Shown: positions 1 through 11,583, numbered from the stretch's first letter. The stretch: 13,145 nucleotides of DNA from Sulfurimonadaceae bacterium (GCA_041562555.1 JBFEXS010000064.1:1-13145), one strand, 5' to 3'. Translations and numbers: made by a program. Notes: generated by a model from the sequence alone, not told the origin.

Positions 1-507
1 CAAAATGGTGAGCATGTCATGATTGTTGGTGGTGGTGACACCGCTGGTGAGTATGCTTACGGTCTAGTTGAGATGGAAGGTATGGAAGATTGTGTAGTTA
101 CACTTAACTACCGCCAAGCAGAGATCAAAAGAATGAACCCGATCAACACTGAGATGTGTTACAAATACCTAGACAACGGTAAAATTTGCAACAAAATGGG
201 TGTAGACGTTGAGAGCCTTGAAGTATCTCCGGCTGGCAAAATCCAAGTTAACTTTACTGACGGAACTTCAGGTGAATATGACAGAGCTGTTTATGCACTT
301 GGTGGTACAACTCCAAAAGATATCCTTGTTAACTCTGGTGTTCAAACAGGTGAATGGGATGTTCCTGTGTATAATGAAGCAACATTTGAAACAAATGTTG
401 AAGGTCTGTACACTATCGGTGACGTTGTAACAGATCAAGGTTCGATCGCTCTAGCATTCAACCACGCTTCTGACGCTGTTAAAAACATCGCTAAAAACCT
501 AAAATAA
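1..507 (+). CDS. NAD(P)/FAD-dependent oxidoreductase, TrxB-like fold, FqrB-like (flavodoxin/ferredoxin:NADP(H) reductase); 5'-partial
   Basis: Frame is open from base 1 (QNGEHVMIVGGGDTAGEYA...), so the ATG at 19 is internal. Contains the NAD(P)H-binding motif GGGDTA, basic YR..KR residues and a C-terminal FAD motif TNVEGLYTIGD. Motifs TLNYR, MGVDVESLE, VNFTD, YALGGTTP and SIALAFNH resemble Helicobacter/Campylobacter FqrB as I recall it. Confidence 0.8.
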   Translation, partial: QNGEHVMIVGGGDTAGEYAYGLVEMEGMEDCVVTLNYRQAEIKRMNPINTEMCYKYLDNGKICNKMGVDVESLEVSPAGKIQVNFTDGTSGEYDRAVYALGGTTPKDILVNSGVQTGEWDVPVYNEATFETNVEGLYTIGDVVTDQGSIALAFNHASDAVKNIAKNLK

Positions 508-591: not shown

Positions 592-2889
592 TTAGCCAAT
601 CATCTCTTTTTGATGTATCTTCTTGAGATAAAAAGCCTGTTCTTGCTCTTGATGTTCAATCAGTCCCGCGATCTCTTTTTCACTTAACTTCAGACCGTCG
701 GGAACTTTTTCAGAATGCAGCTGAATCGCTGTTTGCTTATAGTTTGGTTCCCCTGATTTCGGACAGAAGGTCGAAGAGGTCAAGGTGTTGATCAGTTGTT
801 CACTAAAATGAAAAGGTACGAAGACATTTCCCGGTGCTACGCTCTGTGTCACCCGTACAACAACATCTTCTATACGTCCCCGTACTGAGGAGAGAGCGAT
901 CCGGTCACCCGAATTCACTTTCAGGCGTTGGGCATCGCTTGGGTTGATATCTACCCAAGCCTCGGGAGCAAGATCATTCAAGATATCGATGCTTTTTGTC
1001 TTGGTTCGTGTATGCCACTGTTCAACCGTACGCCCGGTATTCAAGATAACAGGAAACTCTGCTACTAAAGGCTCTTGTAATGGAACCCACTCTACCGGTA
1101 GAAGATTGGCTTTGGCATCCTTGGTTCGAAAAGGGATCTCTTCCGTATAGAGTCTAGGACTGCCTTCCGGATATTCCTCATTACATGGCCACTGTACGCC
1201 CCCTTTTTCTTCAAGCATCGCATACGTGATACCCGAATAGTCGCAGAACTGTCCCTTCGAGACCTTTTTCCATTCATTGAACGCATCTTCGGGTTTTTTC
1301 CAATTGGGAAAGAGGTTTTCCTGAATATTTTGGAAATACCCCGAGAACTCCACCACGATATCAAAATCACTCTTTGCCTCACCTGCCGGTTCTACAGCTT
1401 TATTCGCCCGGTTACAACGGCGTTCGGAGTTGGTATACACCCCCTCTTTCTCACCCCAGGTTCCCGCTGCAAAGACAACATCTGCCATCTCGGCTGTATC
1501 TGAATAAAAGGCATCCTGAACAACCAGCAGATCCAGTTTATCCAAGGCTGAACGCAACTTTTTCTGATTGACAAAACTGACCAAAGGATTGGTTGCGACG
1601 ATCCAAAGGGCTTTGATCTCTCCCCTGTCAATCGCATCAATGATCTCCGCATATTTGTACCCGCGTTCACGGGGTATCCATTCATAAGGAACCCTGACAA
1701 GATCAGCATACTCTTTGGCTGCTGCCTCATCCCCAAAGTTTCTGTACCCCGGTAAAGACGAAGTAAACCCTGTCTCACGAGTTCCCATAGCATTACATTG
1801 TCCAGTGATCGAGAAAGGTGCTGCACCCGGTCTACCGATTTGACCCGTGATCAGATGAAGATTATTGATGGCAGATACCGTATCTGTCCCCATGTAGGAT
1901 TGATTGACCCCCATTGTCCATGCCGTTAAAGCTGCATCCGCACCGGCAATGGAACGTGCGATCTCATACAGGTCTTTCACTTCAATGCCCGTGATATTTG
2001 CAACCTCCTGAGGAGGATAATCCTGTAGATGTCTTTGCAGTTCAGCAAAACCGTTACAATGCTTTGCAATATACTCAGCATTCTCCCATCCCTGCTCAAG
2101 GATGATATAACACAATCCATTGATCAGTGCCAGATCCGTTCTAGCTTTCACGGGAACATACATATCTGCCATCTGCGCCGTCTTAGACACACGCGGATCG
2201 ATCACGATGATCTTCGGATTTTTCTTGTTTTTGGCCAGATGCAGTTTTAATATCGGATGGTTGTCTGCAATATTTGCCCCGATCAAAGTGATCACATCTG
2301 CCTGCTCAAAGTCCTCATAACATCCCACCGGACCGTCCGATCCTAAGGACTGTTTATATCCCATAACGGCAGATGCCATACAGAGTGTTGTATTCCCGTC
2401 ATAATTGTTGGTGCGTAATCCAAGTTGTACAAACTTGCCCAGAGTATAGAACTCCTCTGTCAGTAATTGACCGGTGGAGATGACCCCGATAGCTTTTGGG
2501 CCATGTTCTTTCGTAATACGTTTGAACTCATTGCTTACCTTTCGGTAAGCTTCATCCCAGGATGCAGATCGGTGTTTCCCCTCATCTTTGATCAGTGGGG
2601 TCAAAATACGGTTGTCTGCGTTAATCATCTGATGCTCGCTCAATCCTTTTGGACAAAGAGTACCGATATTAACATCATGTTTCGGATTTCCTTTGGTGTA
2701 GACAGCTTTGCCATCTTTCACACCGATATACAGGCCACAGCCGACACCGCAATAACCACAGGTGGAAAAGACCCATTTATCCGGTTTTTTCTCATCCGAG
2801 ATGCGGCCAAAGACGGGATCATCTGAAAGCTTGTATTTTGCTTCTTTAATATCTACTCCGAGAAAATCTTTTATCTTATTAATCATCAT
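592..2889 (-). CDS. narB: Mo-bisPGD nitrate reductase catalytic subunit, NarB/NasA (assimilatory-type), cytoplasmic
   Basis: N-terminal [4Fe-4S] motif C44-x2-C47-x3-C51...C79-P-K81; STGQLLTEE; Mo-ligand segment GNTTLC170MASA; WTMGVNQS; GQCNAMGTRE; TNSERR; C-terminal LNTGR..QWHTRT. No twin-arginine leader. RBS AAGGAG lies just upstream, and the start is 2889 or 2886. Confidence 0.88.
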   Translation of the reverse strand: MMINKIKDFLGVDIKEAKYKLSDDPVFGRISDEKKPDKWVFSTCGYCGVGCGLYIGVKDGKAVYTKGNPKHDVNIGTLCPKGLSEHQMINADNRILTPLIKDEGKHRSASWDEAYRKVSNEFKRITKEHGPKAIGVISTGQLLTEEFYTLGKFVQLGLRTNNYDGNTTLCMASAVMGYKQSLGSDGPVGCYEDFEQADVITLIGANIADNHPILKLHLAKNKKNPKIIVIDPRVSKTAQMADMYVPVKARTDLALINGLCYIILEQGWENAEYIAKHCNGFAELQRHLQDYPPQEVANITGIEVKDLYEIARSIAGADAALTAWTMGVNQSYMGTDTVSAINNLHLITGQIGRPGAAPFSITGQCNAMGTRETGFTSSLPGYRNFGDEAAAKEYADLVRVPYEWIPRERGYKYAEIIDAIDRGEIKALWIVATNPLVSFVNQKKLRSALDKLDLLVVQDAFYSDTAEMADVVFAAGTWGEKEGVYTNSERRCNRANKAVEPAGEAKSDFDIVVEFSGYFQNIQENLFPNWKKPEDAFNEWKKVSKGQFCDYSGITYAMLEEKGGVQWPCNEEYPEGSPRLYTEEIPFRTKDAKANLLPVEWVPLQEPLVAEFPVILNTGRTVEQWHTRTKTKSIDILNDLAPEAWVDINPSDAQRLKVNSGDRIALSSVRGRIEDVVVRVTQSVAPGNVFVPFHFSEQLINTLTSSTFCPKSGEPNYKQTAIQLHSEKVPDGLKLSEKEIAGLIEHQEQEQAFYLKKIHQKEMIG

Positions 2890-2895
2890 CTCTCC

Positions 2896-4464
2896 TTAAT
2901 GTCTCTGTGAACCGACAAAAAATCCACCTGCCATATTCAGGGGAACGACTGTCGCATAAAACAGGAATCTGTCCATAAACTCTGACAGACTCATCATAAG
3001 CAAGGCCACTGCCAATAGTGGAATAGCCAAGGGACTAGAAATCATAACAGTGACGAGTAAAGGAAGCAACAGTGCTCCAAACACAAAACTTCCTATTCGA
3101 AGTTTTTGGTGTACGCCAAAGAAAGTTTCATAGATCTCCTCTGTCTTTGTCAACTGGGCAGTGTACACCCCACTTGTACCTAATCCTTTCTTATCCTCAT
3201 AACTAAAAAACCCCTGTGTCAGTGCAAAAAGCAGCGCCAGACTCATCAATGGCGACGCAGCCTCATATTCACCCTGCAGTAAAAGGACAAAGGACAACAG
3301 AAACAATCCGATATACGAGACCCCGAAAAACTTCAATAATGTCGTCTTGCGATTCCATGACGGACGTGCTTCGATCTGATAGATCATCCCCTGTGCATAG
3401 ATGCCGTAAGCACCTACGCCCAAAGTCAATGCTTCAAAAAAGACCCGTCCATACACGGTGAACTCAAACAGGTATAAAAGGATATTCAAAGACATAAGTC
3501 CGGTGAAGAGACCAAGAGCCAGGGCTTCACGACTTAACCATGAGGTCTTGATGTTCTTCATTGCCGTCATCGCCTTTAGGGGACGGCCCAAGTGTAATGC
3601 GGAGAGCGGAAGTCCAAGTGCTGCCGGTAACATTGCTATCAACGCCATGATCCATGTAGGTTCGTTGCGGCCACTGATGCTCAGTAGGTCTCCCAAAAAG
3701 AGTGCCAAAAATGCCCCTAGCGATATCTGGGTAAGAACGGTCATAAAGACAAGAGGCATCTCGGAGTGAGCCGGTTTCAAATGATGCGCATCTGCTGCTA
3801 TCATCTCTTCAGGCAACTTGTCAGGAAGCGTATATCGGGTAGTCGCATTCGTGACTCTTGCATCGACCAGATGAGGCATATTTCCCTGTTCGTCGATCGC
3901 ACCCTCTAACCACTCTTTTGGCTTGAACACCTCGATCTCAATCGCACCCGACGGACAGGCCTGGACGCAGGCCGGGGACTGTCCGATATCTAGACGTTCA
4001 TGACACATATGACACTTGGTAACAATATGCCTTTCCTCATGGAAGGTAGGAACCCCGTATGGACAGTTCCATGTACAATACTGACATCCGATACATGAGA
4101 GATCATCATGTATGACGATCCCGGTCTCTTCGATCTTGATATAGGAGTTTGTCGGACAACCGATCAGACAAGCCGGATCAATACAGTGGTTGCACGACAT
4201 CGAATTAAAGAGTTGACTGACCTGGGGAAAGACACCTCCCTCACTCTCTCCTACACGTCGCCATTTAATATCCAAAGGATTATTGTTTTGCTCGTTACAG
4301 GCAACTTCACAACAACGACATCCGACACAGGCAGTCGCATCAAAGTGGAAACGATAGTTCTCATCCTCCTGCAGTTCAGGTAAATCGATGCTGTAATTTC
4401 CACACTGCATTCCCGTCTGTGCTTTATAGTCGATAAATTGTTCCAATGGGGTTGCCGTGCTCAT
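2896..4464 (-). CDS. Fusion of DmsB/NrfC-type four-cluster Fe-S protein and DmsC/YnfH-type membrane anchor
   Basis: Four Cys groups (C46/49/52/56, C91/94/99/103, C124/127/130/134, C151/154/166/170). From about aa 233 it is DmsC-like: HSEMPLVFMTVLTQ, SALH291LGRP, SWLSRE313, terminal E..DRFLFY, about 8 hydrophobic helices. RBS AAGGAG at 4474-4469. Its stop TAA overlaps the narB RBS (TAAGGAG). Confidence 0.88.
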   Translation of the reverse strand: MSTATPLEQFIDYKAQTGMQCGNYSIDLPELQEDENYRFHFDATACVGCRCCEVACNEQNNNPLDIKWRRVGESEGGVFPQVSQLFNSMSCNHCIDPACLIGCPTNSYIKIEETGIVIHDDLSCIGCQYCTWNCPYGVPTFHEERHIVTKCHMCHERLDIGQSPACVQACPSGAIEIEVFKPKEWLEGAIDEQGNMPHLVDARVTNATTRYTLPDKLPEEMIAADAHHLKPAHSEMPLVFMTVLTQISLGAFLALFLGDLLSISGRNEPTWIMALIAMLPAALGLPLSALHLGRPLKAMTAMKNIKTSWLSREALALGLFTGLMSLNILLYLFEFTVYGRVFFEALTLGVGAYGIYAQGMIYQIEARPSWNRKTTLLKFFGVSYIGLFLLSFVLLLQGEYEAASPLMSLALLFALTQGFFSYEDKKGLGTSGVYTAQLTKTEEIYETFFGVHQKLRIGSFVFGALLLPLLVTVMISSPLAIPLLAVALLMMSLSEFMDRFLFYATVVPLNMAGGFFVGSQRH

Positions 4465-4495
4465 GACACTCCTTATAATTCTTAAACTATTATTA

Positions 4496-4506
4496 GCGAA
4501 ATTATA
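4496..4506 (-). promoter_or_regulatory. Putative sigma70 -10 element for the FeS/anchor-narB operon
   Basis: Minus strand reads TATAAT-TTCGC, with a perfect -10 hexamer at 4506-4501, 36 nt upstream of the start codon. The same 11-mer occurs at the narK promoter. Confidence 0.65.
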
Positions 4507-4532
4507 TCCGAATAGAAAAAAAGCAGAAAAAA

Positions 4533-4557
4533 GAAATGATTACTTTTTAATCATTTC
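4533..4557. promoter_or_regulatory. Palindromic operator, core TGATT-N7-AATCA
   Basis: GAAATGATTA-CTTTT-TAATCATTTC is a perfect 10-bp inverted repeat. The core (4537-4553) lies 30 nt upstream of the minus-strand -10. Confidence 0.65.
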
Positions 4558-4646
4558 ATATAAGTCATGATATTCCTCTTGTTATATAACTAAATTCATT
4601 TATCTTCCTAAATAAAATCATCACTTGGAGTGACAAGATGGGGTGT

Positions 4647-4663
4647 TGGTTGTTTTTTAATCA
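4647..4663. promoter_or_regulatory. Second copy of the operator, TGGTT-N7-AATCA
   Basis: TGGTTGTTTTTTAATCA matches TGATTACTTTTTAATCA at 14 of 17 positions and lies 31 nt upstream of the narK -10. Confidence 0.6.
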
Positions 4664-4694
4664 CAATACTGTCTACTATCTGTTTTTCATACCC

Positions 4695-4705
4695 TATAAT
4701 TTCGC
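4695..4705 (+). promoter_or_regulatory. Putative sigma70 -10 element of narK
   Basis: TATAAT(4695-4700)-TTCGC, followed by RBS AGGAG (4719-4723) and ATG at 4730. Confidence 0.65.
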
Positions 4706-4729
4706 CAACAAACTGTTTAGGAGAACACA

Positions 4730-6010
4730 ATGGCAGGTTTGAAAGCATTAAAAGGTGAAGGTCATTGGCCGACACTGTTAGCAGCTTTTTTATATTTCGA
4801 TTTTAGTTTTATGGTGTGGACCATGTTGGGACCACTTTCTACAGAGATCTCTGAGTCGCTCGCAGCAACAGGTTTTATCATTTCTGCAGGGCAAAAAGCG
4901 ACCCTGCTCTCATTACCGATTCTAGCTGGAGCATTGCTAAGAATCTTACTTGGATTTGGTGTCGATAAGTTTGGTGCGAAGAAGACGGCACTTATATCCC
5001 AGGCGGTTGTTATTTCCGCACTTTTTTTTGCCTACTTTCAGGGTGAGCATATCACCTATTCACAACTACTGGTAGTAGCCCTTGGTCTTGGATTTGCAGG
5101 TGCTTCATTCGCAGTTGCCCTTCCACAGGCCGGTCAATGGTATCCGCCAAAGCTTCAAGGTGTCGTCTTGGGAATTGCAGGTGCCGGTAATATTGGTGTC
5201 GTGATCGACTTTTTGTTCGCTCCGAAGATTGCTGAGCATTGGGGATGGCAATCAGTCTTCCTGGTTGGTGCGGTGCTTTCTACTATCATTTTCGTGACCT
5301 ATATTTTCATGGCAAAAGATGCCCCGGAGAGCGTTTATAAATCAAACCCGAAATCTTTGAAGGATTACGCTAAATTGCTTAAAGACAAAGATACGTGGTG
5401 GTTCAACCTCTTTTATGCGATCAGCTTCGGCGGGTTTGTCGGTTTTGCAGGATATATGAAAGTGTACCTGATGAACACCTATGCACCAGAAATGGCAGAG
5501 TATGGTCTGTCATGGCTAGCCGAAGAGAATGTTAAGGTCATGGCAGGATATTTTGGCGCGCTCTGTATCTTTGCCGGTGCAGTACTCCGTCCGGTTGGCG
5601 GTGCGATCGCGGATAAGATGGGTGGTGTAAAATCTCTCTATATCTTTTTTGGAATGGTAGCGACCCTGGCTGTGATCAACGCACTGGTTGAACTTCCGTT
5701 TGCAGCAGCTATCCTCGTGCTTTTCCTGATCATGGCAAACCTTGGTATGGCAAATGGTGCAGTATTCCAACTTGTACCACAGCGTTTTGGAAAAGACATC
5801 GGTATCATGACCGGTATCATCGGTGCAGCAGGCGGTCTTGGCGGTACGGCACTGATCAAGACACTGGGTTGGTCAAAAGGTGCCTTTGACGGATATACAG
5901 CAGGTTTCCTGATTTTTGCCGGTGTCGTTTTTGTGGCGATCGCAGGGATCTCATTTGTCAAAACACGTTGGAGAACAACATGGGGTGCAGCAGCGGGTGG
6001 ACGTATCTAG
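4730..6010 (+). CDS. narK: MFS nitrate/nitrite transporter, NarK/NasA (NNP) family
   Basis: About 12 hydrophobic segments; conserved substrate Arg in ALLRILLG and AVLRPVGG; nitrate-signature segments GFAGASFAVALPQAGQWYP...GIAGAGN and GMANGAVFQLVPQRF...GIIGAAGGLGG. Divergent from narB. Confidence 0.92.
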   Translation: MAGLKALKGEGHWPTLLAAFLYFDFSFMVWTMLGPLSTEISESLAATGFIISAGQKATLLSLPILAGALLRILLGFGVDKFGAKKTALISQAVVISALFFAYFQGEHITYSQLLVVALGLGFAGASFAVALPQAGQWYPPKLQGVVLGIAGAGNIGVVIDFLFAPKIAEHWGWQSVFLVGAVLSTIIFVTYIFMAKDAPESVYKSNPKSLKDYAKLLKDKDTWWFNLFYAISFGGFVGFAGYMKVYLMNTYAPEMAEYGLSWLAEENVKVMAGYFGALCIFAGAVLRPVGGAIADKMGGVKSLYIFFGMVATLAVINALVELPFAAAILVLFLIMANLGMANGAVFQLVPQRFGKDIGIMTGIIGAAGGLGGTALIKTLGWSKGAFDGYTAGFLIFAGVVFVAIAGISFVKTRWRTTWGAAAGGRI

Positions 6011-6150: not shown

Positions 6151-7413
6151 ATGAAAAAACTACTTATCGTCGATGATAGTGAAACAGTACTGAATATTTT
6201 CAAAGATGCACTCAAAAACGCTCCTGAGATTGAGGCACTGTATGCTGAAAGTTACAATGAGGCGATGCGTATCATACGTTTAAACCCCGATCAGATTCAT
6301 GCGGCCATTCTTGATTACAATCTTCCCGATGCCCCAAAAGGGGAGGTCATCGCACTGGCAAATTCCAATAACATCCCTACCGTCGTTTTGACCGGCAGCC
6401 TGAACAAAGACACCCGGAACATCATCTTAAAAAAGAATGTCATTGATTTTATCCTTAAAAATGATCCGAACAGCATCCGTTCTGCGCTGGATTCAGCCAA
6501 TAAAGCACTTAAAAACTATGATACCACCGTTCTTATTGCCGATGACTCCAAACTGTCGCGTGAACTGATCAAGATGAGTCTGGAAACCATTCATCTCAAC
6601 ATCATGGAAGCCACCAACGGACAAGAAGCACTGGACCTCGTATTAAGCGATGAACATAATATCTCTTTACTCATCACCGATTATGAGATGCCCGAGATAG
6701 ACGGTTTGGACCTTACCTTCACACTTCGGGAGAAGTTTTCAAAAGCCCAGCTTGGTATCATCGCCATGAGCGGTGCTGAGGACGAAGAGACCATCTCTAA
6801 ATTTCTCAAACTCGGGGCGAATGATTTTGTTCATAAACCTCCCGTTCCCAATGAGATTATTACGACGGTCAATGCGAATCTGGAGCTTCTAAGTCTTTTT
6901 GAACAAGTTCAGGAGCTGGCAAACAAGGACTTTTTGACAGGAGCCTATAATCGACGCCATTTCTTTGACACCGGTGAAGCCATATTTTTGAAAGCGAAAC
7001 GTAAAGACCTTCCTTTATCCGTGGCAATGCTGGATATTGATAAATTTAAAATCATCAATGATACCTATGGACATGACGTGGGAGATATAGCGATCAAGGA
7101 GGTAAAGACGATTTTGGAGACAACCCTCAGACGTTCTGACCTGTTTGCACGTTTCGGAGGAGAAGAGTTCTGTATCCTGCTGGAGGGGGTCTCTCTTGAA
7201 GACGTTCAAATGCTCTTCGAAAAGATACGCACCAAGTTTGAAAAGAACACAATCCATACGAAGGACACATCTGTCTCCTATACTGTTTCTATAGGTGTCG
7301 TCTATGGTATGGCAGACTCTCTCGAGGCTTTGGTTAATTTATCCGATGAAGCACTCTATTTTGCAAAAGAACATGGTCGAAACCAGGTCAAGATCAATAC
7401 CCATACTATTTAA
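6151..7413 (+). CDS. Response-regulator diguanylate cyclase (REC-REC-GGDEF, PleD-like architecture)
   Basis: REC1: IVDD, D55, T81, K103. REC2: IADD, D177, S207, K229-P. GGDEF domain: DFLTGAYNRR, DIDKFKIINDTYGHDVGD, I-site RRSD five residues before GGEEF, and ALYFAKEHGRN. Confidence 0.93.
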   Translation: MKKLLIVDDSETVLNIFKDALKNAPEIEALYAESYNEAMRIIRLNPDQIHAAILDYNLPDAPKGEVIALANSNNIPTVVLTGSLNKDTRNIILKKNVIDFILKNDPNSIRSALDSANKALKNYDTTVLIADDSKLSRELIKMSLETIHLNIMEATNGQEALDLVLSDEHNISLLITDYEMPEIDGLDLTFTLREKFSKAQLGIIAMSGAEDEETISKFLKLGANDFVHKPPVPNEIITTVNANLELLSLFEQVQELANKDFLTGAYNRRHFFDTGEAIFLKAKRKDLPLSVAMLDIDKFKIINDTYGHDVGDIAIKEVKTILETTLRRSDLFARFGGEEFCILLEGVSLEDVQMLFEKIRTKFEKNTIHTKDTSVSYTVSIGVVYGMADSLEALVNLSDEALYFAKEHGRNQVKINTHTI

Positions 7414-7428
7414 TAAACAAGGAAAAAT

Positions 7429-9075
7429 GTGTTAAAAGTCCAGTCATCCCAATATATACTCCCAAAGGCGGAAGGTATCCAAGGCGATGATGCCTGCGAT
7501 TTTGCCATTTTAGAAAAATCACTGCTTGTCGCTGTCCTGTGCGACGGTGTCGGCTCTGCTAAGAAGGGAGGTGCTGCAGCCCGTCAAAGTGTCAAGTTCT
7601 TCATTGATCATTTTAAAACCCGGCCAAAAAACTGGGACATCACGCAAAGCCTCACACTCTTTACCCAGCATATCAACCGTCTGCTTTTCAAGGAGTCTAT
7701 GACCCAGTATGAACGTATTGAACTCTTGACGACACTCTGTGTTGCCGTCATCGAAGGAGAAACGCTCTATACGATGAACCTTGGTGATTCGCGTATCTAC
7801 CTCCTGGATAAAGATCAGAACCTTCGTCAACTGAGTGAAGATCATATCATGGATGAAGAGCACCTCTCCCACGTTTTGGTACAAGCCTGCGGACTAAGTG
7901 AACATGTTGAACCGGTCATCACTGCAACAAGTATCGCAAAAGGAGACACGCTTATCCTATGCAGTGATGGTCTGACATCTTTGATCAGTGATGAGGAGAT
8001 CAAAACCGAGATCCTCAAGGGACTCGGAGCAACGACCCTGGTACAAAGTGCCGCCAAAGACCATAAGGACAATGAACGTGATGATATCTCACTGCAGATC
8101 TTTCGTATAGAAGAACTCGATCAGCGACATGCCCTGATGAAACAGGATCTTCTTATCCCTCAAACCCTGAAGAAGGGAGATATCTATGATGAATATGAGC
8201 TTGTCTCATCCATAGTGGAACATGGACGTATCTGGAAGGTACAAAAAGAGGACAAAACCTATGTGATGAAGTTTCCTATGGTACAAGCCATTGATGACCC
8301 CATGGCACTCGAAGAGTTCGTCAAAGAAGCCTGGTATGCCAAACAGATCCACCATAAAGCCTTTGGAGAGGCCTGGGTACCTGAAAATCGTTCCGCACGT
8401 TATTATCTCATGGAACTTGTCGAAGGAATCAACCTTGCCGAATATGTTAAAAACCGCCCTATTACGATCGATTCAGCTATTGCCTTGGCCAAATTCTTGC
8501 ACAAGGCCGAAGCACATCTTTTACATTTTGGGCTGGTACACGGGGATATCAAGCCTGAGAATATCATTGTCTATAAGAAAGAGGGAGAAGTCGGTGTCGA
8601 TTTCAAGATGGTCGATTTTGGATCGGTCGTAGAGGTATTCGAAGTCAATTCCAGAGCAGGTACACCCTCTTTTCTCGCTCCGGAACGTTTCAATGGCAAT
8701 GCCATCAATGAATCGACCGAAATCTTCTCTATCGGAGTCACACTCTATTGGGCCTTGACCGGTAAATACCCCTATGGGGAGATCGAGCCCTTTCAGACCC
8801 CAAGCTTTAAGACGGCAAAACGACCCAGCCTGTATAATAAAAACATCCCTCATTGGTTTGAATCAATCATCATGCGATCCATAGAAATCGATGTAGAACA
8901 CCGCTATAGCCACTATTCTGAATTCTTTTATGAGCTGAAATCACCAGAGAAGGTCAAACCCTATTATGAGAAAGACTCCTCTTTCATCGAGCGCGAACCT
9001 CTGTTGTTTTATAAGGCCGGTTTTTTCATCATGCTGATCATCAATGTTGTCGGCTTTATCTACTACAATGCCTAA
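7429..9075 (+). CDS. Bifunctional PP2C protein phosphatase / Ser-Thr protein kinase with C-terminal membrane helix
   Basis: PP2C motifs GDDA, LCDGVG, NLGDSR, LSEDH, LCSDGL and DDIS. Kinase motifs VMK, E.F.KE, HGDIKPEN, DFG, GTPSFLAPE and EIFSIG. Hydrophobic C-terminus AGFFIMLIINVVGFIYY. GTG start after AAGGA. Confidence 0.9.
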   Translation: MLKVQSSQYILPKAEGIQGDDACDFAILEKSLLVAVLCDGVGSAKKGGAAARQSVKFFIDHFKTRPKNWDITQSLTLFTQHINRLLFKESMTQYERIELLTTLCVAVIEGETLYTMNLGDSRIYLLDKDQNLRQLSEDHIMDEEHLSHVLVQACGLSEHVEPVITATSIAKGDTLILCSDGLTSLISDEEIKTEILKGLGATTLVQSAAKDHKDNERDDISLQIFRIEELDQRHALMKQDLLIPQTLKKGDIYDEYELVSSIVEHGRIWKVQKEDKTYVMKFPMVQAIDDPMALEEFVKEAWYAKQIHHKAFGEAWVPENRSARYYLMELVEGINLAEYVKNRPITIDSAIALAKFLHKAEAHLLHFGLVHGDIKPENIIVYKKEGEVGVDFKMVDFGSVVEVFEVNSRAGTPSFLAPERFNGNAINESTEIFSIGVTLYWALTGKYPYGEIEPFQTPSFKTAKRPSLYNKNIPHWFESIIMRSIEIDVEHRYSHYSEFFYELKSPEKVKPYYEKDSSFIEREPLLFYKAGFFIMLIINVVGFIYYNA

Positions 9076-9176: not shown

Positions 9177-10490
9177 ATGTTTTCTTGGTTTACCTCTTTG
9201 TTCCATGTATCACCTCAGCCTACATATTCTTTTGGACGTTTCATCTCCTATAAAAAGACTCCTCAACAGCAAGACTCCTATCAAGCTTCTAAAAAAGCAT
9301 TCTCTCAGCAGCGTTATCTGGAGGGCTACGAATATTATTTTGAGTATCTTAAGTTTTATGAAGATGGTGAAGAGAGCGGGAACATCTCCTATGAGAAGAA
9401 GCATGACACCTTATATTTCAAGATCATTCAGGGCTCGGCTATTATCCAGGGGAACATCACACAAAGGCGTCTGAGTGCGACCGCCAATATCGCACATACC
9501 GTCAATGATAATATCGCCGTGATGCGACGGCTCCTGGAAAAGAACTATATGTATACCTATACCAGTTTTTACCTGGAGAAAGAGACCCTTAAAGCCAAGA
9601 TATTTTTCGACAATATTGCCCTCTCACCACAGAAAGTCTTTTTTCCCCTGCGCGAACTCACCATCAATGCAGATAAAGAAAAAGAGCTCTTATTGGACGA
9701 ATTCAACGACCTTGATCCCATCGAGTTGGATCATATCGAAGCCATGAACCCTCATCTAAAAGAGACTAAACTTCGTTTTTATCGCGAATGGATCGATAAG
9801 ACGGAACAGAAGGTCTCCCTTCTTCCCAGCCGGGAGCAATCCGGGGCGATCGCTTTTGTCTGGCTTACCCTGCTGCTTAAAATCGACTACTTCGTCACGC
9901 CCAGGGGGAAACTGGGATATGACATCTATGAAGCCATTCAGGAATACTATATTGATGACAACAAGCTGATCGAAGAGAAAAACGATGCCCTCCAAAAAGC
10001 AACGATTAAATTCAAAGAGATTGATTCCCAGCAGCTTGCTAAGAGTCTTTACAGTGTCAAGCAGACCTTTGATATCTTCAGTGCGAATAACCTGGATGAG
10101 ATACGTGCCTTTATCGAAGAGACTCTGGGAAAGATCATCTGGTACAAGGAACACCGATATGAAGAGATCATTCTGACGATTTATGAATATCTCGGACTCT
10201 ACATGCTCTATAACTTTGGAATGAATGACTGTCTTAAAGAGTTTGTTCAGCTTAATGTACGTCTTCACAATACCGATTTCCACTCTGCTCTGGGAATGGA
10301 CAGTCTCTATAAAGGAGATAAGATCAACAGTTCGAAAGTATCCAAAAAGATATCTCAGACTATTGCATTCTATGCCAAGACCTACCCGCATCTGCATGAT
10401 TTTTCGGCTCAACTCAATTATGAGTCCCTGGAGAAATTCCATCACTCCTATTTCAATGCCTTGAGAACCCTGAATTTTAGTGAGCTATAA
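9177..10490 (+). CDS. Uncharacterised 437-aa protein with a probable YbjN/CesT-like domain (aa ~81-176) and a helical C-terminal region
   Basis: Long ORF filling the gap between recognised genes. AAGG lies upstream and the stop abuts the next start. aa 81-176 align by eye with the C-terminal domain of the downstream protease. The fold name is inferred. Confidence 0.8.
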   Translation: MFSWFTSLFHVSPQPTYSFGRFISYKKTPQQQDSYQASKKAFSQQRYLEGYEYYFEYLKFYEDGEESGNISYEKKHDTLYFKIIQGSAIIQGNITQRRLSATANIAHTVNDNIAVMRRLLEKNYMYTYTSFYLEKETLKAKIFFDNIALSPQKVFFPLRELTINADKEKELLLDEFNDLDPIELDHIEAMNPHLKETKLRFYREWIDKTEQKVSLLPSREQSGAIAFVWLTLLLKIDYFVTPRGKLGYDIYEAIQEYYIDDNKLIEEKNDALQKATIKFKEIDSQQLAKSLYSVKQTFDIFSANNLDEIRAFIEETLGKIIWYKEHRYEEIILTIYEYLGLYMLYNFGMNDCLKEFVQLNVRLHNTDFHSALGMDSLYKGDKINSSKVSKKISQTIAFYAKTYPHLHDFSAQLNYESLEKFHHSYFNALRTLNFSEL

Positions 10491-10491
10491 C

Positions 10492-11583
10492 ATGAATACG
10501 CAAGAGATATTAGACACCTACCAAGAGAGTATCATCCAGATCGAGACACCTTTGGCTTCCGGTTCGGGATTTTACCTTCAAAAACACGAACTGATTATCA
10601 CCAACTCACATGTAGTTGCCGGGCTCAAAGAGGTCGTCATCTCTTCCAAAGACATCAAACGGCGTGAAGCAACCGTCATTTACGATGATCCCAAATATGA
10701 CCTTGCCTTTATACGGACAGAAGTCTCGTTAAAAGTCAAAAACCCTCTTCATCTTTCTCAAGAGAGTGTCCATGACGGAGACAGAGTCGTCGCTATCGGC
10801 CATCCCTATGGTCTTAATTATACCGCGACGGAAGGAATCGTCTCTAAGGCCGCACGCCTCCAAGGCGAATTGGAATATATTCAGATCGATGCTGCGATCA
10901 ACCCGGGGAACAGTGGAGGACCGTTACTCAACGTCAACGGCGAGGTAATAGGTGTCAACACCTTTATAATCCAAAACTCCAACAATTTGGGATTCGCTCT
11001 GCCTTTCTCCTACGTCCAAGAAGCCCTTGACGCCTTTAAAGCCTTGGATAAACACGGGGTCATACGCTGTTCGTCCTGTCTCAACCTTGTACAAGAAGTA
11101 GATATCAAAGATGACTACTGCCCGGAATGTGGAGTCAAGATCGATATCGCCAAAAAACGACGCGAAGGATATACCCCTGTCGGGACCATCAAGACAGTTG
11201 AGAATATTTTAAGGGATATGGGTAAGGATGTTGCTCTCTCCCGCAGAGGACAACGTATGTGGCAGATCGACATCGGGTCTGCCCGTGTCGAAATATCCTA
11301 TTATGACAACGGTATCATCGTGGCCGATGCTTCCTTATGCCGTCTTCCCCATGAGAACATCGAAAAAATCTATCATTTCATGTTGGAAGAAAACACCAAG
11401 ATGGATTATCTCCAGTTTGCCATAAACGACAACACGATATTACTCTCATATATCATCGTGGACAGCTCTTTGGAAGAAAAAAATGGGAGTATCGCCTTGG
11501 GAAGACTCTTCAACAAGGCAGATATCTATGATGACATCCTGATCAACACCTATGGTGCACTTGTCATCAAACGCGATGATTAA
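10492..11583 (+). CDS. Cytoplasmic trypsin-like (S1C/HtrA-type) serine protease with Zn ribbon and YbjN-like C-terminal domain, no PDZ
   Basis: Numbering follows the 367-aa track ORF: SGSGF, TNSH44VV, D74LA, IQIDAAINPGNS145GGPL, then C197xxC200...C214xxC217. No signal peptide. The ATG at 10492 (1 nt after the upstream stop) is preferred over the GTG at 10480. Confidence 0.9.
   Translation: MNTQEILDTYQESIIQIETPLASGSGFYLQKHELIITNSHVVAGLKEVVISSKDIKRREATVIYDDPKYDLAFIRTEVSLKVKNPLHLSQESVHDGDRVVAIGHPYGLNYTATEGIVSKAARLQGELEYIQIDAAINPGNSGGPLLNVNGEVIGVNTFIIQNSNNLGFALPFSYVQEALDAFKALDKHGVIRCSSCLNLVQEVDIKDDYCPECGVKIDIAKKRREGYTPVGTIKTVENILRDMGKDVALSRRGQRMWQIDIGSARVEISYYDNGIIVADASLCRLPHENIEKIYHFMLEENTKMDYLQFAINDNTILLSYIIVDSSLEEKNGSIALGRLFNKADIYDDILINTYGALVIKRDD

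What the first reader, a model, noticed from the sequence alone, without database searches (positions are those of the whole stretch)
592..4464. NarB-type nitrate reductase coupled to a fused Fe-S/DmsC anchor: candidate quinol-fed cytoplasmic nitrate reductase
Seen: the catalytic subunit has assimilatory NarB/NasA motifs, no Tat leader and no C-terminal Cys-rich [2Fe-2S] domain. It is tightly coupled (stop overlaps RBS) to a single polypeptide with four Fe-S clusters and a DmsC-like anchor that keeps the HLGxP His and the SxE Glu. A NarK importer is transcribed divergently. Established: Nas enzymes normally use ferredoxin/flavodoxin or an NADH diaphorase, NarGHI uses a di-haem b anchor, Nap is periplasmic, and the His of DmsC HLGxP is part of the menaquinol site. 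Inference: this two-subunit enzyme fits none of these classes and may draw electrons for cytoplasmic nitrate reduction from the quinol pool, sparing ferredoxin/NAD(P)H in a chemolithotroph. Similar gene pairs may already be annotated in other genomes, but I know of no biochemical characterisation.
Basis: partly seen in the sequence, partly recalled or inferred. Interest (0 to 1): 0.82.

Follow-up and report, generated by a model that had tools for sequence, protein, structure and literature searches.

The report
Membrane-anchored cytoplasmic nitrate reductase, probably quinol-fed
A sulfur-oxidising bacterium carries a nitrate-assimilation enzyme whose catalytic subunit is paired with a fused iron-sulfur and membrane-anchor protein that faces the cell interior, which suggests that it takes its electrons from membrane quinol rather than from ferredoxin or NADH.

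Summary
On the minus strand, 2896-4464 encodes a 522-aa protein with four complete [4Fe-4S] Cys groups fused to an 8-helix DmsC-family anchor. After 6 nt, with the stop inside the RBS, 592-2889 encodes a 765-aa Mo-bisPGD subunit with a Cys-Met active-site motif, no Tat leader and no C-terminal Cys domain. narK is divergent.

The anchor keeps the equivalents of E. coli DmsC His65 and Glu87 (H291, E313) in 72 of 72 homologues. Its Lys+Arg loop bias is the reverse of DmsC, so the Fe-S domain and the quinol-site loop face the cytoplasm.

Of 80 related Campylobacterota loci, 50 have the Mo gene adjacent, 9 have it further downstream, 8 lack it within reach and 13 are too short. NirA-like, NarK, NrtABC and siroheme genes surround the pair, which points to assimilation.

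The catalytic subunit is not in the classical NasA/NarB, NapA or NasC clades. Its sister clade is Acidobacteriota "nitrate reductase".

Papers I read state that Nas/Nap-clade enzymes lack such partners, and I found none describing this one. Automatic annotation already hints at it. Quinol dependence is inferred, not shown. I rate it a new variant of a known kind, of moderate to high interest.

The parts
592..2889 (-). Catalytic Mo-bisPGD subunit, 765 aa. FS0 Cys are C44, C47, C51 and C79. The Mo ligand is Cys170, followed by Met171 (codons 2380-2382 and 2377-2379). It has a conserved, non-Tat 37-aa N-terminal extension.
2890..2898 (-). Junction TAA GGAGAG before the ATG. The stop codon of the fusion gene overlaps the Shine-Dalgarno sequence of the Mo gene, and the gap is 6 nt.
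2896..4464 (-). Fused Fe-S and membrane-anchor protein, 522 aa.
3931..4356 (-). Four-cluster ferredoxin domain (residues 37-178) of DmsB/PsrB/FdnH type, predicted to be cytoplasmic.
2956..3765 (-). DmsC-family anchor domain (residues 234-503), with 8 helices and N-in/C-in topology.
3526..3594 (-). Loop between TM2 and TM3 that carries H291 (3592-3594) and E313 (3526-3528), the equivalents of DmsC His65 and Glu87. It is predicted to lie on the cytoplasmic side.
4465..4729 (.). Divergent intergenic region between the fusion gene and narK, presumably holding both promoters. I did not analyse it.
4730..6010 (+). NarK-family MFS nitrate/nitrite transporter, 426 aa.

Best explanation
This is a membrane-bound, cytoplasm-facing assimilatory nitrate reductase built from three modules on two polypeptides.

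1. Nitrate enters through NarK (through NrtABC in some relatives).
2. Menaquinol is oxidised at a site formed by the TM2-TM3 loop of the DmsC-like domain (H291, E313), near the cytoplasmic face.
3. Electrons pass along four [4Fe-4S] clusters of the N-terminal domain of the same polypeptide.
4. They reach the [4Fe-4S] FS0 cluster and then the Mo-bisPGD centre (Cys170) of the catalytic subunit, which reduces nitrate to nitrite in the cytoplasm.
5. A linked NirA-like sirohaem enzyme takes nitrite on to ammonium.

Quinol protons would be released, and substrate protons consumed, on the same side of the membrane. The step should therefore be non-electrogenic: a cheap way to assimilate nitrate without low-potential ferredoxin or NAD(P)H.

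**Shown:** the architecture, the motifs, the orientation bias, the gene linkage and the context.
**Inferred:** physical contact of the two proteins, quinol as donor, and nitrate as substrate.
For: - **Active site:** the motif NTTLCMASAV is of the Cys-Met kind. 81 of the 143 sequences examined have it, against 42 with the Cys-His motif of formate dehydrogenases. The best solved relative is D. desulfuricans NapA, E 1e-131.
- **Fe-S wire:** four complete Cys groups are invariant in 42 sequences.
- **Anchor:** the DmsC Pfam match is above its cut-off. H65 and E87 equivalents are kept in 72 of 72. Both residues are reported as needed for quinol oxidation by DmsC (PMC8076601, passages). The modelled TM domain has pLDDT about 80-98, and its best fold matches are ActC and PsrC.
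- **Orientation:** in 72 fusions the Fe-S-side loops carry on average 19.5 Lys+Arg against 1.3 on the other side. DmsC of E. coli and Proteus shows the reverse bias. Neither protein has a signal peptide.
- **Linkage:** the Mo gene is adjacent in 50 of 80 loci and downstream on the same strand in 9 more. Start and stop often overlap by 4 nt.
- **Same order far away:** a high-GC ORF reads FeS-DmsC and then a Mo part 50% identical to this one. A EukProt model strings MFS, NirA, FeS-DmsC and Mo together.
- **Context:** of 81 sources, a NirA-like gene is present in 35 and NarK in 44, with NrtABC and CysG-N also nearby. nirA is translationally coupled upstream of the fusion gene in 10 loci.
Against: - There is no biochemical or genetic evidence of any kind.
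- 8 of 80 loci have the fusion gene but no Mo gene within 3.1-8 kb. They are scattered in the fusion-protein tree, so the pairing is not obligate in gene order.
- The Fe-S domain was modelled poorly (pLDDT below 50), so the geometry between the quinol site and the clusters was not seen.
- Fold matches all have E above 0.001.
- The linked nitrite reductase is of the ferredoxin type, so ferredoxin is presumably available to the pathway anyway.
- The catalytic subunit is below every NCBIfam equivalog cut-off, so its substrate rests on one motif and on context.
Confidence: 0.6

Rival explanations
1. The catalytic subunit is an ordinary ferredoxin- or flavodoxin-dependent Nas. The Fe-S/DmsC protein only tethers it to the membrane, or relays electrons from a soluble donor through its Fe-S domain, and no quinol is oxidised.
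For: Characterised members of the wider Nas group use soluble donors (PMC7331816 and PMC10100899, passages). The linked NirA-like enzyme is of the ferredoxin type. 8 of 80 loci separate the two genes.
Against: H291 and E313 are invariant in 72 of 72, which a mere tether would not need. The NrfD/DmsC-type modules listed in the two reviews I read (passages only) are described as quinone-reactive.
Confidence: 0.15
2. It is a quinol:nitrate oxidoreductase used for electron disposal or respiration rather than for assimilation. NarK would act as a nitrate/nitrite antiporter that exports nitrite to the periplasmic denitrification enzymes.
For: NarK-family proteins include antiporters (recalled, from no call). 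Some loci carry a haem-copper-oxidase-like gene set directly upstream.
Against: The predicted topology gives no charge separation. NirA-like, CysG-N and NrtABC genes are the recurrent neighbours. Sulfurimonas genomes already carry Nap for respiration, and the cluster is read as assimilatory in PMC7952632 (passages).
Confidence: 0.12
3. The main partner of the Fe-S/DmsC protein is not the Mo subunit. It could be the NirA-like nitrite reductase or the upstream haem-copper-oxidase-like proteins, and adjacency to the Mo gene would reflect only a shared operon.
For: nirA overlaps or abuts the fusion gene in 10 loci. One ORF, P0274, fuses NirA to FeS-DmsC in frame. 4 loci keep the oxidase-like set and the fusion gene without a Mo gene.
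Against: The Mo gene is adjacent far more often, in 50 of 80 loci. Four-cluster proteins of this kind pair with Mo-bisPGD subunits in every solved relative found. P0274 is a single sequence from one contig.
Confidence: 0.08
4. The substrate is not nitrate, or the enzyme runs towards quinone reduction as SoeABC does.
For: The best NCBIfam score is to formate dehydrogenase alpha, 587 bits. SoeC shares His65 and Glu87 and belongs to a cytoplasm-facing enzyme (the orientation is recalled).
Against: The motif is Cys-Met, not Cys/Sec-His. The score is below the Fdh cut-off of 666. The context is nitrate and nitrite genes.
Confidence: 0.05

Closest known systems
DmsABC / PsrABC-type complex iron-sulfur molybdoenzymes (CISM)
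   Same: It has a Mo-bisPGD subunit, a four-cluster ferredoxin and a haem-free 8-helix DmsC/NrfD-type quinol anchor, in the same B-then-C order. The DmsC His65 and Glu87 equivalents are kept.
   Different: B and C are one polypeptide. There is no Tat signal and the membrane orientation is inverted. The catalytic subunit comes from the Nas/Nap/Fdh superclade, not from the DmsA/PsrA clades.
SoeABC sulfite:quinone oxidoreductase
   Same: It is a cytoplasm-facing three-module Mo enzyme with a DmsC-like anchor. SoeC is listed with His65 and Glu87 (PMC8076601).
   Different: Soe oxidises sulfite and reduces quinone, whereas here the flow is predicted from quinol to nitrate. Its subunits are separate and its catalytic family is different. 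I made no direct sequence comparison with Soe.
Assimilatory nitrate reductases NasA/NarB/NasC
   Same: The enzyme is cytoplasmic with an FS0 cluster and a Cys-Met active-site motif. It is embedded among nitrate transport and nitrite reductase genes.
   Different: Those enzymes use ferredoxin, flavodoxin or an NAD(P)H diaphorase and have no four-cluster or anchor partner (PMC7331816). This protein lies in a different clade and scores far below the NasC and NasA equivalog cut-offs.
NarGHI respiratory nitrate reductase
   Same: It oxidises quinol and reduces nitrate in the cytoplasm through a four-cluster subunit.
   Different: NarI is a di-haem b anchor with its quinol site on the outer side, so NarGHI is electrogenic. 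NarG is an Asp-ligated enzyme of another clade: TIGR01580 gives only 38.6 bits here.
ForCE menaquinone-linked formate dehydrogenase of B. subtilis
   Same: It is a cytoplasmic member of the same Fdh/Nas superclade wired to menaquinone by a non-canonical partner (PMC8808070, abstract).
   Different: The partner is a different small subunit, not a four-cluster/DmsC protein. The substrate is formate and the flow runs towards quinone.

Membership tests
Mo-bisPGD (DMSO reductase / MopB) superfamily, Nas/Nap/Fdh superclade | N-terminal four-Cys FS0 motif plus Molybdopterin and Molydop_binding domains | tested here: met
   Pfam matches of 61.2, 245.5 and 89 bits are all above their cut-offs. C44, C47, C51 and C79 are invariant in 42 sequences.
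Nitrate reductases of the Nas/Nap kind | Cys ligand to Mo followed by Met, in contrast to Cys/Sec-His in formate dehydrogenases | tested here: met
   The motif is LCMASAV, with C170 and M171 invariant. That this motif separates the two kinds rests on the tree clades and on the alignment to D. desulfuricans NapA.
Classical NasA/NarB (soluble, ferredoxin- or flavodoxin-dependent) | Membership of the NasA/NarB clade | tested here: not met
   In the IQ-TREE quick tree the query lies in another clade (SH-aLRT 99) than the group holding the Ensifer nirBD-linked nitrate reductase. No cyanobacterial NarB reference with a name was available, so its place is assumed.
Classical NasA/NarB (soluble, ferredoxin- or flavodoxin-dependent) | Stands alone, without a four-cluster or anchor partner | tested here: not met
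   The fusion gene is adjacent in the window and in 50 of 80 loci.
NasC (B. subtilis type) / haloarchaeal NasA equivalogs | NCBIfam curated score cut-off | tested here: not met
   It scores 496.8 against a cut-off of 1100, and 478.7 against 1000.
NapA periplasmic nitrate reductase | Twin-arginine signal and the NapA equivalog score | tested here: not met
   There is no hydrophobic signal core. It scores 407.8 against a cut-off of 904. It lies in a separate clade from E. coli NapA.
Formate dehydrogenase alpha (TIGR01591) | Curated cut-off and the Cys/Sec-His motif | tested here: not met
   It scores 587 against a cut-off of 666.25 and has the Cys-Met motif.
DmsC/YnfH anchor family (PF04976) | Pfam gathering score | tested here: met
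   It scores 78.6 bits against 22.3, over residues 234-503.
DmsC/YnfH anchor family (PF04976) | Quinol-site His65 and Glu87 | tested here: met
   H291 and E313 are aligned to them and kept in 72 of 72. Their role is taken from PMC8076601.
DmsC/YnfH anchor family (PF04976) | Fe-S partner and quinol site on the periplasmic side | tested here: not met
   The Lys+Arg bias is reversed relative to E. coli and Proteus DmsC, and there is no export signal. This is a prediction, not an experiment.
Four-cluster ferredoxin subunit (DmsB/PsrB/FdnH type) | Four Cys groups, each able to bind a [4Fe-4S] cluster | tested here: met
   All 16 Cys are invariant. It scores 151 bits on TIGR02951, below the 214 cut-off. 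The best PDB sequence matches are FdnH at 1.7e-24 and PsrB at 3.8e-22.
CISM holoenzyme | Physical complex of the A subunit with the B-C module | not testable with these tools
   Complex prediction was full and then unavailable. The only evidence is gene linkage.
NarGHI | NarG-type subunit and a di-haem NarI anchor | tested here: not met
   TIGR01580 gives 38.6 bits against a cut-off of 1084. No NarI-like ORF is present in the window.
NarK nitrate/nitrite transporters (TIGR00886) | Curated subfamily score | tested here: not met
   It scores 236.5 bits against 311.7, although this is by far its best family. The MFS_1 match is above its cut-off.

The most novel reading that the evidence does not exclude
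The Fe-S/DmsC protein is a cytoplasm-facing quinol dehydrogenase hub that feeds both the Mo nitrate reductase and the NirA-like sirohaem nitrite reductase. The whole eight-electron path from nitrate to ammonium would then run on menaquinol without ferredoxin.

The hub would have arisen by loss of Tat export and topological inversion of a periplasmic CISM ancestor. It would be shared by Campylobacterota and Acidobacteriota and so be common in vents, sediments and soils.
Probability: 0.15. Interest if true: 0.8.

Novelty: new variant of a known kind. Interest (0 to 1): 0.62.

Why it matters
Assimilatory nitrate reductases are taught as soluble enzymes fed by ferredoxin, flavodoxin or NAD(P)H. 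A quinol-fed, membrane-anchored, non-electrogenic form would be a third way of supplying electrons.

- It would explain how rTCA chemolithoautotrophs, for which reduced ferredoxin is costly, pay for nitrate assimilation.
- It would contradict the published generalisation that the Nas/Nap/Aio/Fdh clade never recruited the canonical four-cluster and anchor module.
- The closest relatives found are Acidobacteriota proteins that sources name nitrate reductase. Fused Fe-S/DmsC protein clusters are commonest in Acidobacteriota in the Atlas. The design may therefore matter for nitrogen budgets in soils as well as at vents.
- It is directly testable with standard membrane assays and point mutants.

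Tried and rejected
- **Structure of the fusion protein:** the TM domain is confident, but the Fe-S domain has pLDDT below 50. The distance from the quinol site to the clusters could not be read. The fold search gave no match with E at or below 0.001.
- **Plasmid tblastn with the fusion protein:** no record covers at least 80% of the query. The one long match, in Proteus, is separate dmsB and dmsC genes read through.
- **Plasmid hits of the Mo subunit:** the two regions I looked at for a partner (Curtobacterium and Deinococcus) have no Fe-S/DmsC gene beside the nitrate reductase. The Ensifer region, fetched later as a tree reference, has none either.
- **Rosetta-stone search among longer proteins:** P0275 looks like a frameshifted read-through, because similarity stops at residue 542 and the linker is Arg/Ser/Pro-rich. 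P0276 is probably an operon merged by a eukaryotic gene caller. I count both as evidence of gene order only. P0172 (1286 aa) has no Fe-S/DmsC domain.
- **Atlas search with the Mo subunit:** it gave only generic names.
- **A MoA-less paralogue clade:** rejected, because those loci are scattered in the fusion-protein tree.
- **A redox domain in the NirA C-terminal extension:** rejected, because it has no Cys.
- **Papers:** Sievert et al. 2008 (PMC2258580) is not held. I consulted no supplements.
- **Collections:** The single genome scan returned only the best 80 of 560 confirmed loci, all of them close relatives.


Full report
**What is in the window**

The window has about 44% G+C. Its closest relatives are Sulfurimonadaceae contigs.

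- On the minus strand, ORF 2896-4464 (522 aa, P0002) is followed after 6 nt by ORF 592-2889 (765 aa, P0001).
- The junction reads TAA GGAGAG ATG, so the stop codon lies inside the Shine-Dalgarno sequence of the second gene.
- Across a 265-bp spacer, a 426-aa MFS protein (4730-6010, plus strand) is transcribed divergently.

**The catalytic subunit (P0001)**

- It has the Molybdop_Fe4S4, Molybdopterin and Molydop_binding domains.
- The FS0 Cys residues (C44, C47, C51, C79) and C170-M171 are invariant in 42 orthologues.
- The first 37 residues are hydrophilic and carry no Tat signal. The 40-residue tail has no Cys.
- It is below every NCBIfam equivalog cut-off: Fdh-alpha 587 of 666, NasC 497 of 1100, haloarchaeal NasA 479 of 1000, NapA 408 of 904, NarG 39 of 1084.
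- The best solved relative is the monomeric NapA of D. desulfuricans (E 1e-131), closely followed by formate dehydrogenases.

To tell nitrate reductase from formate dehydrogenase, I aligned the query with the 142 of 150 library representatives that have at least 600 aa.

- 81 of the 143 sequences, the query among them, have Cys-Met after the Mo-ligand position. 42 have Cys-His, and 20 have something else.
- The two motifs fall into separate clades.

**Where the catalytic subunit sits in the family**

The exhaustive representative search found 24,968 relatives with E at or below 0.001. The nearest cluster outside the query's own is only 53% identical (P0123), and the next are 46% or less.

I built an IQ-TREE quick tree of 77 sequences, rooted on 11 Cys-His sequences.

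- The Campylobacterota enzymes form a clade with support 100.
- Its sister, with support 99, is P0123 and its relatives. Sources name these 'nitrate reductase' or 'assimilatory nitrate reductase catalytic subunit' from Acidobacteriota such as Bryobacterales, Solibacter and Terriglobia.
- This pair belongs to a larger clade that also holds a group of about 695-aa proteins, an 'NTRQCMA' group, several proteins with genuine Tat signals, and the Deinococcus and Curtobacterium plasmid 'nitrate reductases'.
- It is separate from three other groups: the one containing the Ensifer nirBD-linked nitrate reductase (classical NasA/NarB), the one containing E. coli NapA, and the group that NCBIfam scores as NasC.

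'NarB-type' is therefore a fair description of the domain layout but not of the lineage. One caveat applies: no named cyanobacterial NarB was available, so its place in the tree is assumed.

**The partner protein (P0002)**

- It matches Fer4_11 and the DmsC family, the latter at 78.6 bits against a cut-off of 22.3.
- All sixteen Cys of the four cluster-binding groups are invariant in 42 homologues.
- By sequence, the Fe-S domain is closest to FdnH, PsrB and ArrB among solved chains.
- P0002 is collinear with separate DmsB and DmsC of E. coli and Proteus. E. coli DmsC His65 and Glu87 align with H291 and E313, which are kept in 72 of 72 fusion homologues.
- A review reports that replacing His65 blocks quinol oxidation, that Glu87 is important for quinol binding, and that SoeC has the same two residues (PMC8076601, passages).
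- An AlphaFold model is confident for eight transmembrane helices but not for the Fe-S domain. Its best fold matches are ActC of alternative complex III and PsrC with bound menaquinone, though none reaches E 0.001.

**Orientation**

- Neither protein has an export signal.
- In P0002 the loops on the side of the Fe-S domain, including the H291-E313 loop, carry 16 Lys+Arg. The loops on the opposite side carry 2.
- Over 72 fusions the means are 19.5 and 1.3.
- The aligned loops of E. coli DmsC give 4 and 7, and those of Proteus DmsC give 2 and 11.

By the positive-inside rule, the module is inverted relative to DmsBC. The Fe-S domain and the quinol site face the cytoplasm, where the catalytic subunit must be.

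**Linkage and context**

The genome scan found 560 confirmed relatives and returned the best 80. All that carry a taxon name are Campylobacterota: Sulfurimonas, Sulfuricurvum, Sulfurovum and Aliarcobacter.

Position of the Mo gene relative to the fusion gene:

| Mo gene position | Loci (of 80) |
|---|---|
| Within 150 nt downstream | 50 |
| 0.3-6.3 kb downstream, same strand | 9 |
| Absent within 3.1-8 kb | 8 |
| Too little sequence to tell | 13 |

- In the 9 loci with a larger gap, unrelated cargo such as RND efflux or chemotaxis genes lies between the two genes.
- The 8 loci without a Mo gene are scattered in the fusion-protein tree, so they do not form a paralogue clade.

Recurrent neighbours:

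- a ferredoxin-type NirA-like sirohaem nitrite reductase, in 35 of 81 sources;
- NarK, in 44 of 81 sources;
- a nitrate ABC transporter;
- a sirohaem-synthase N-terminal domain protein.

In 10 loci nirA abuts or overlaps the start of the fusion gene, and in 17 loci it lies downstream on the same strand.

A search among longer proteins found three ORFs that run these genes together.

- P0274 is an in-frame NirA-FeS-DmsC fusion.
- P0275 is a high-GC FeS-DmsC-Mo ORF whose Mo part is 50% identical to P0001. It is probably a frameshift artefact.
- P0276 is a EukProt model reading MFS-NirA-FeS-DmsC-Mo. It is probably a merged operon.

I take the last two as evidence that the gene order extends to distant lineages, not as evidence of real fusions.

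**Mechanism**

The simplest reading is a cytoplasm-facing quinol:nitrate oxidoreductase used for assimilation.

- Menaquinol is oxidised at the H291/E313 site.
- Electrons pass along four [4Fe-4S] clusters to FS0 and then to Mo.
- Nitrite goes on to the NirA-like enzyme.
- Thermodynamically this is easy. Menaquinone lies near -70 mV (established knowledge, recalled). The nitrate/nitrite couple is given as 433 mV in PMC10100899.
- Both proton events occur on the cytoplasmic side, so no proton-motive force should be made. This is an inference.

What is shown is the architecture, the motif conservation, the orientation bias, the linkage and the context. Contact between the two proteins, the donor and the substrate are inferred.

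**Comparison with what is known**

- The enzyme works like a CISM (DmsABC or PsrABC). In orientation it is like SoeABC. Its catalytic subunit, however, comes from the clade of which Wells et al. [quoted passage not shown]
- The lists of NrfCD-type modules in Duarte 2018 (PMC6303296) and Calisto and Pereira 2021 include no nitrate-assimilation member. In the latter, 'nitrate reductase' occurs 0 times.
- A Sulfurimonas comparative paper calls the cluster an assimilatory pathway but does not mention the anchor (PMC7952632).
- A Thiovulum paper notes an nrfD-narB-ttrB operon but files it under sulfur metabolism (PMC9938260).
- Ten full-text searches found no paper describing a quinol-fed or membrane-anchored assimilatory nitrate reductase. 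The six exact phrases gave 0 papers.
- Most subscription papers are outside the searched library; Sievert 2008, which I asked for, is not held.
- Automatic annotation comes close to the idea. One Atlas cluster of fused Fer4 and DmsC proteins, commonest in Acidobacteriota, is auto-named 'Nitrate reductase (Quinol-dependent), transmembrane subunit'.

**Verdict**

I rate it a new variant of a known kind, with interest 0.62.

Noticed in passing
window 7429-9075 (+); also 6151-7413, 9177-10490, 10480-11583: A fused PP2C phosphatase and Ser/Thr kinase gene lies beside narK in 34 of 81 sources. This suggests phospho-regulation of nitrate uptake. In the window, a response-regulator-GGDEF gene sits between the two. 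A 437-aa ORF with no family match and a trypsin-like protease follow it in 9-13 sources.
   Followed up: partly
e.g. L043 about 4.1-7.8 kb; L021 4411-7827: In 13-14 loci a four-gene set lies directly upstream of the fusion gene on the same strand. It has three small proteins with no family match and a 562-aa COX1-family protein (PF00115 173 bits, but only 86 bits to CtaD). In 4 of these loci no Mo gene is nearby. It may be an unusual haem-copper oxidase or an NO-reductase-like enzyme.
   Followed up: partly
window 2779-2889 (-), residues 1-37 of the Mo subunit: The N-terminal extension is conserved: K7, F9, G11, D13, I14, D24, F27 and G28 are invariant in 42 sequences. 'KIKDFLG' resembles a decayed twin-arginine motif. 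Compare 'RRAFLK' in Tat-bearing relatives and 'SLRRRLGF' in the Acidobacteriota sister. It may be a remnant of a periplasmic ancestor, or a chaperone-binding site.
   Followed up: no
P0276 (EukProt g10243.t1, 2189 aa): One eukaryote-dataset gene model strings together MFS, NirA, four-cluster Fe-S, DmsC and a Mo subunit. It is probably a bacterial operon merged by a eukaryotic gene caller, or contamination. Its Mo part belongs to the 'NTRQCMA' group.
   Followed up: partly
L056 8204-10114 (NirA-like, 636 aa): The linked NirA-like nitrite reductase has a Cys-free C-terminal extension of about 120 aa that matches no family.
   Followed up: partly
L083 6004-8484; L084 5908-8355; P0135, P0142, P0146, P0171: A clade of annotated 'nitrate reductases', on Deinococcus and Curtobacterium plasmids, has Cys-Thr instead of Cys-Met after the Mo ligand. 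Each is followed by a small hypothetical gene and an HPP-family gene.
   Followed up: no
P0133 (929 aa): A relative in the neighbouring 'NTRQCMA' group carries an N-terminal SdhB/FrdB-like 2Fe-2S domain (PF13085) fused to the Mo subunit. This is another possible link of this clade to quinone-type electron modules.
   Followed up: no
window 1-507 (+): The 3' end of a pyridine-nucleotide-disulfide oxidoreductase gene converges on the Mo gene. It has a counterpart in only one blastp source, the window itself, so it is unlikely to be a dedicated diaphorase.
   Followed up: partly
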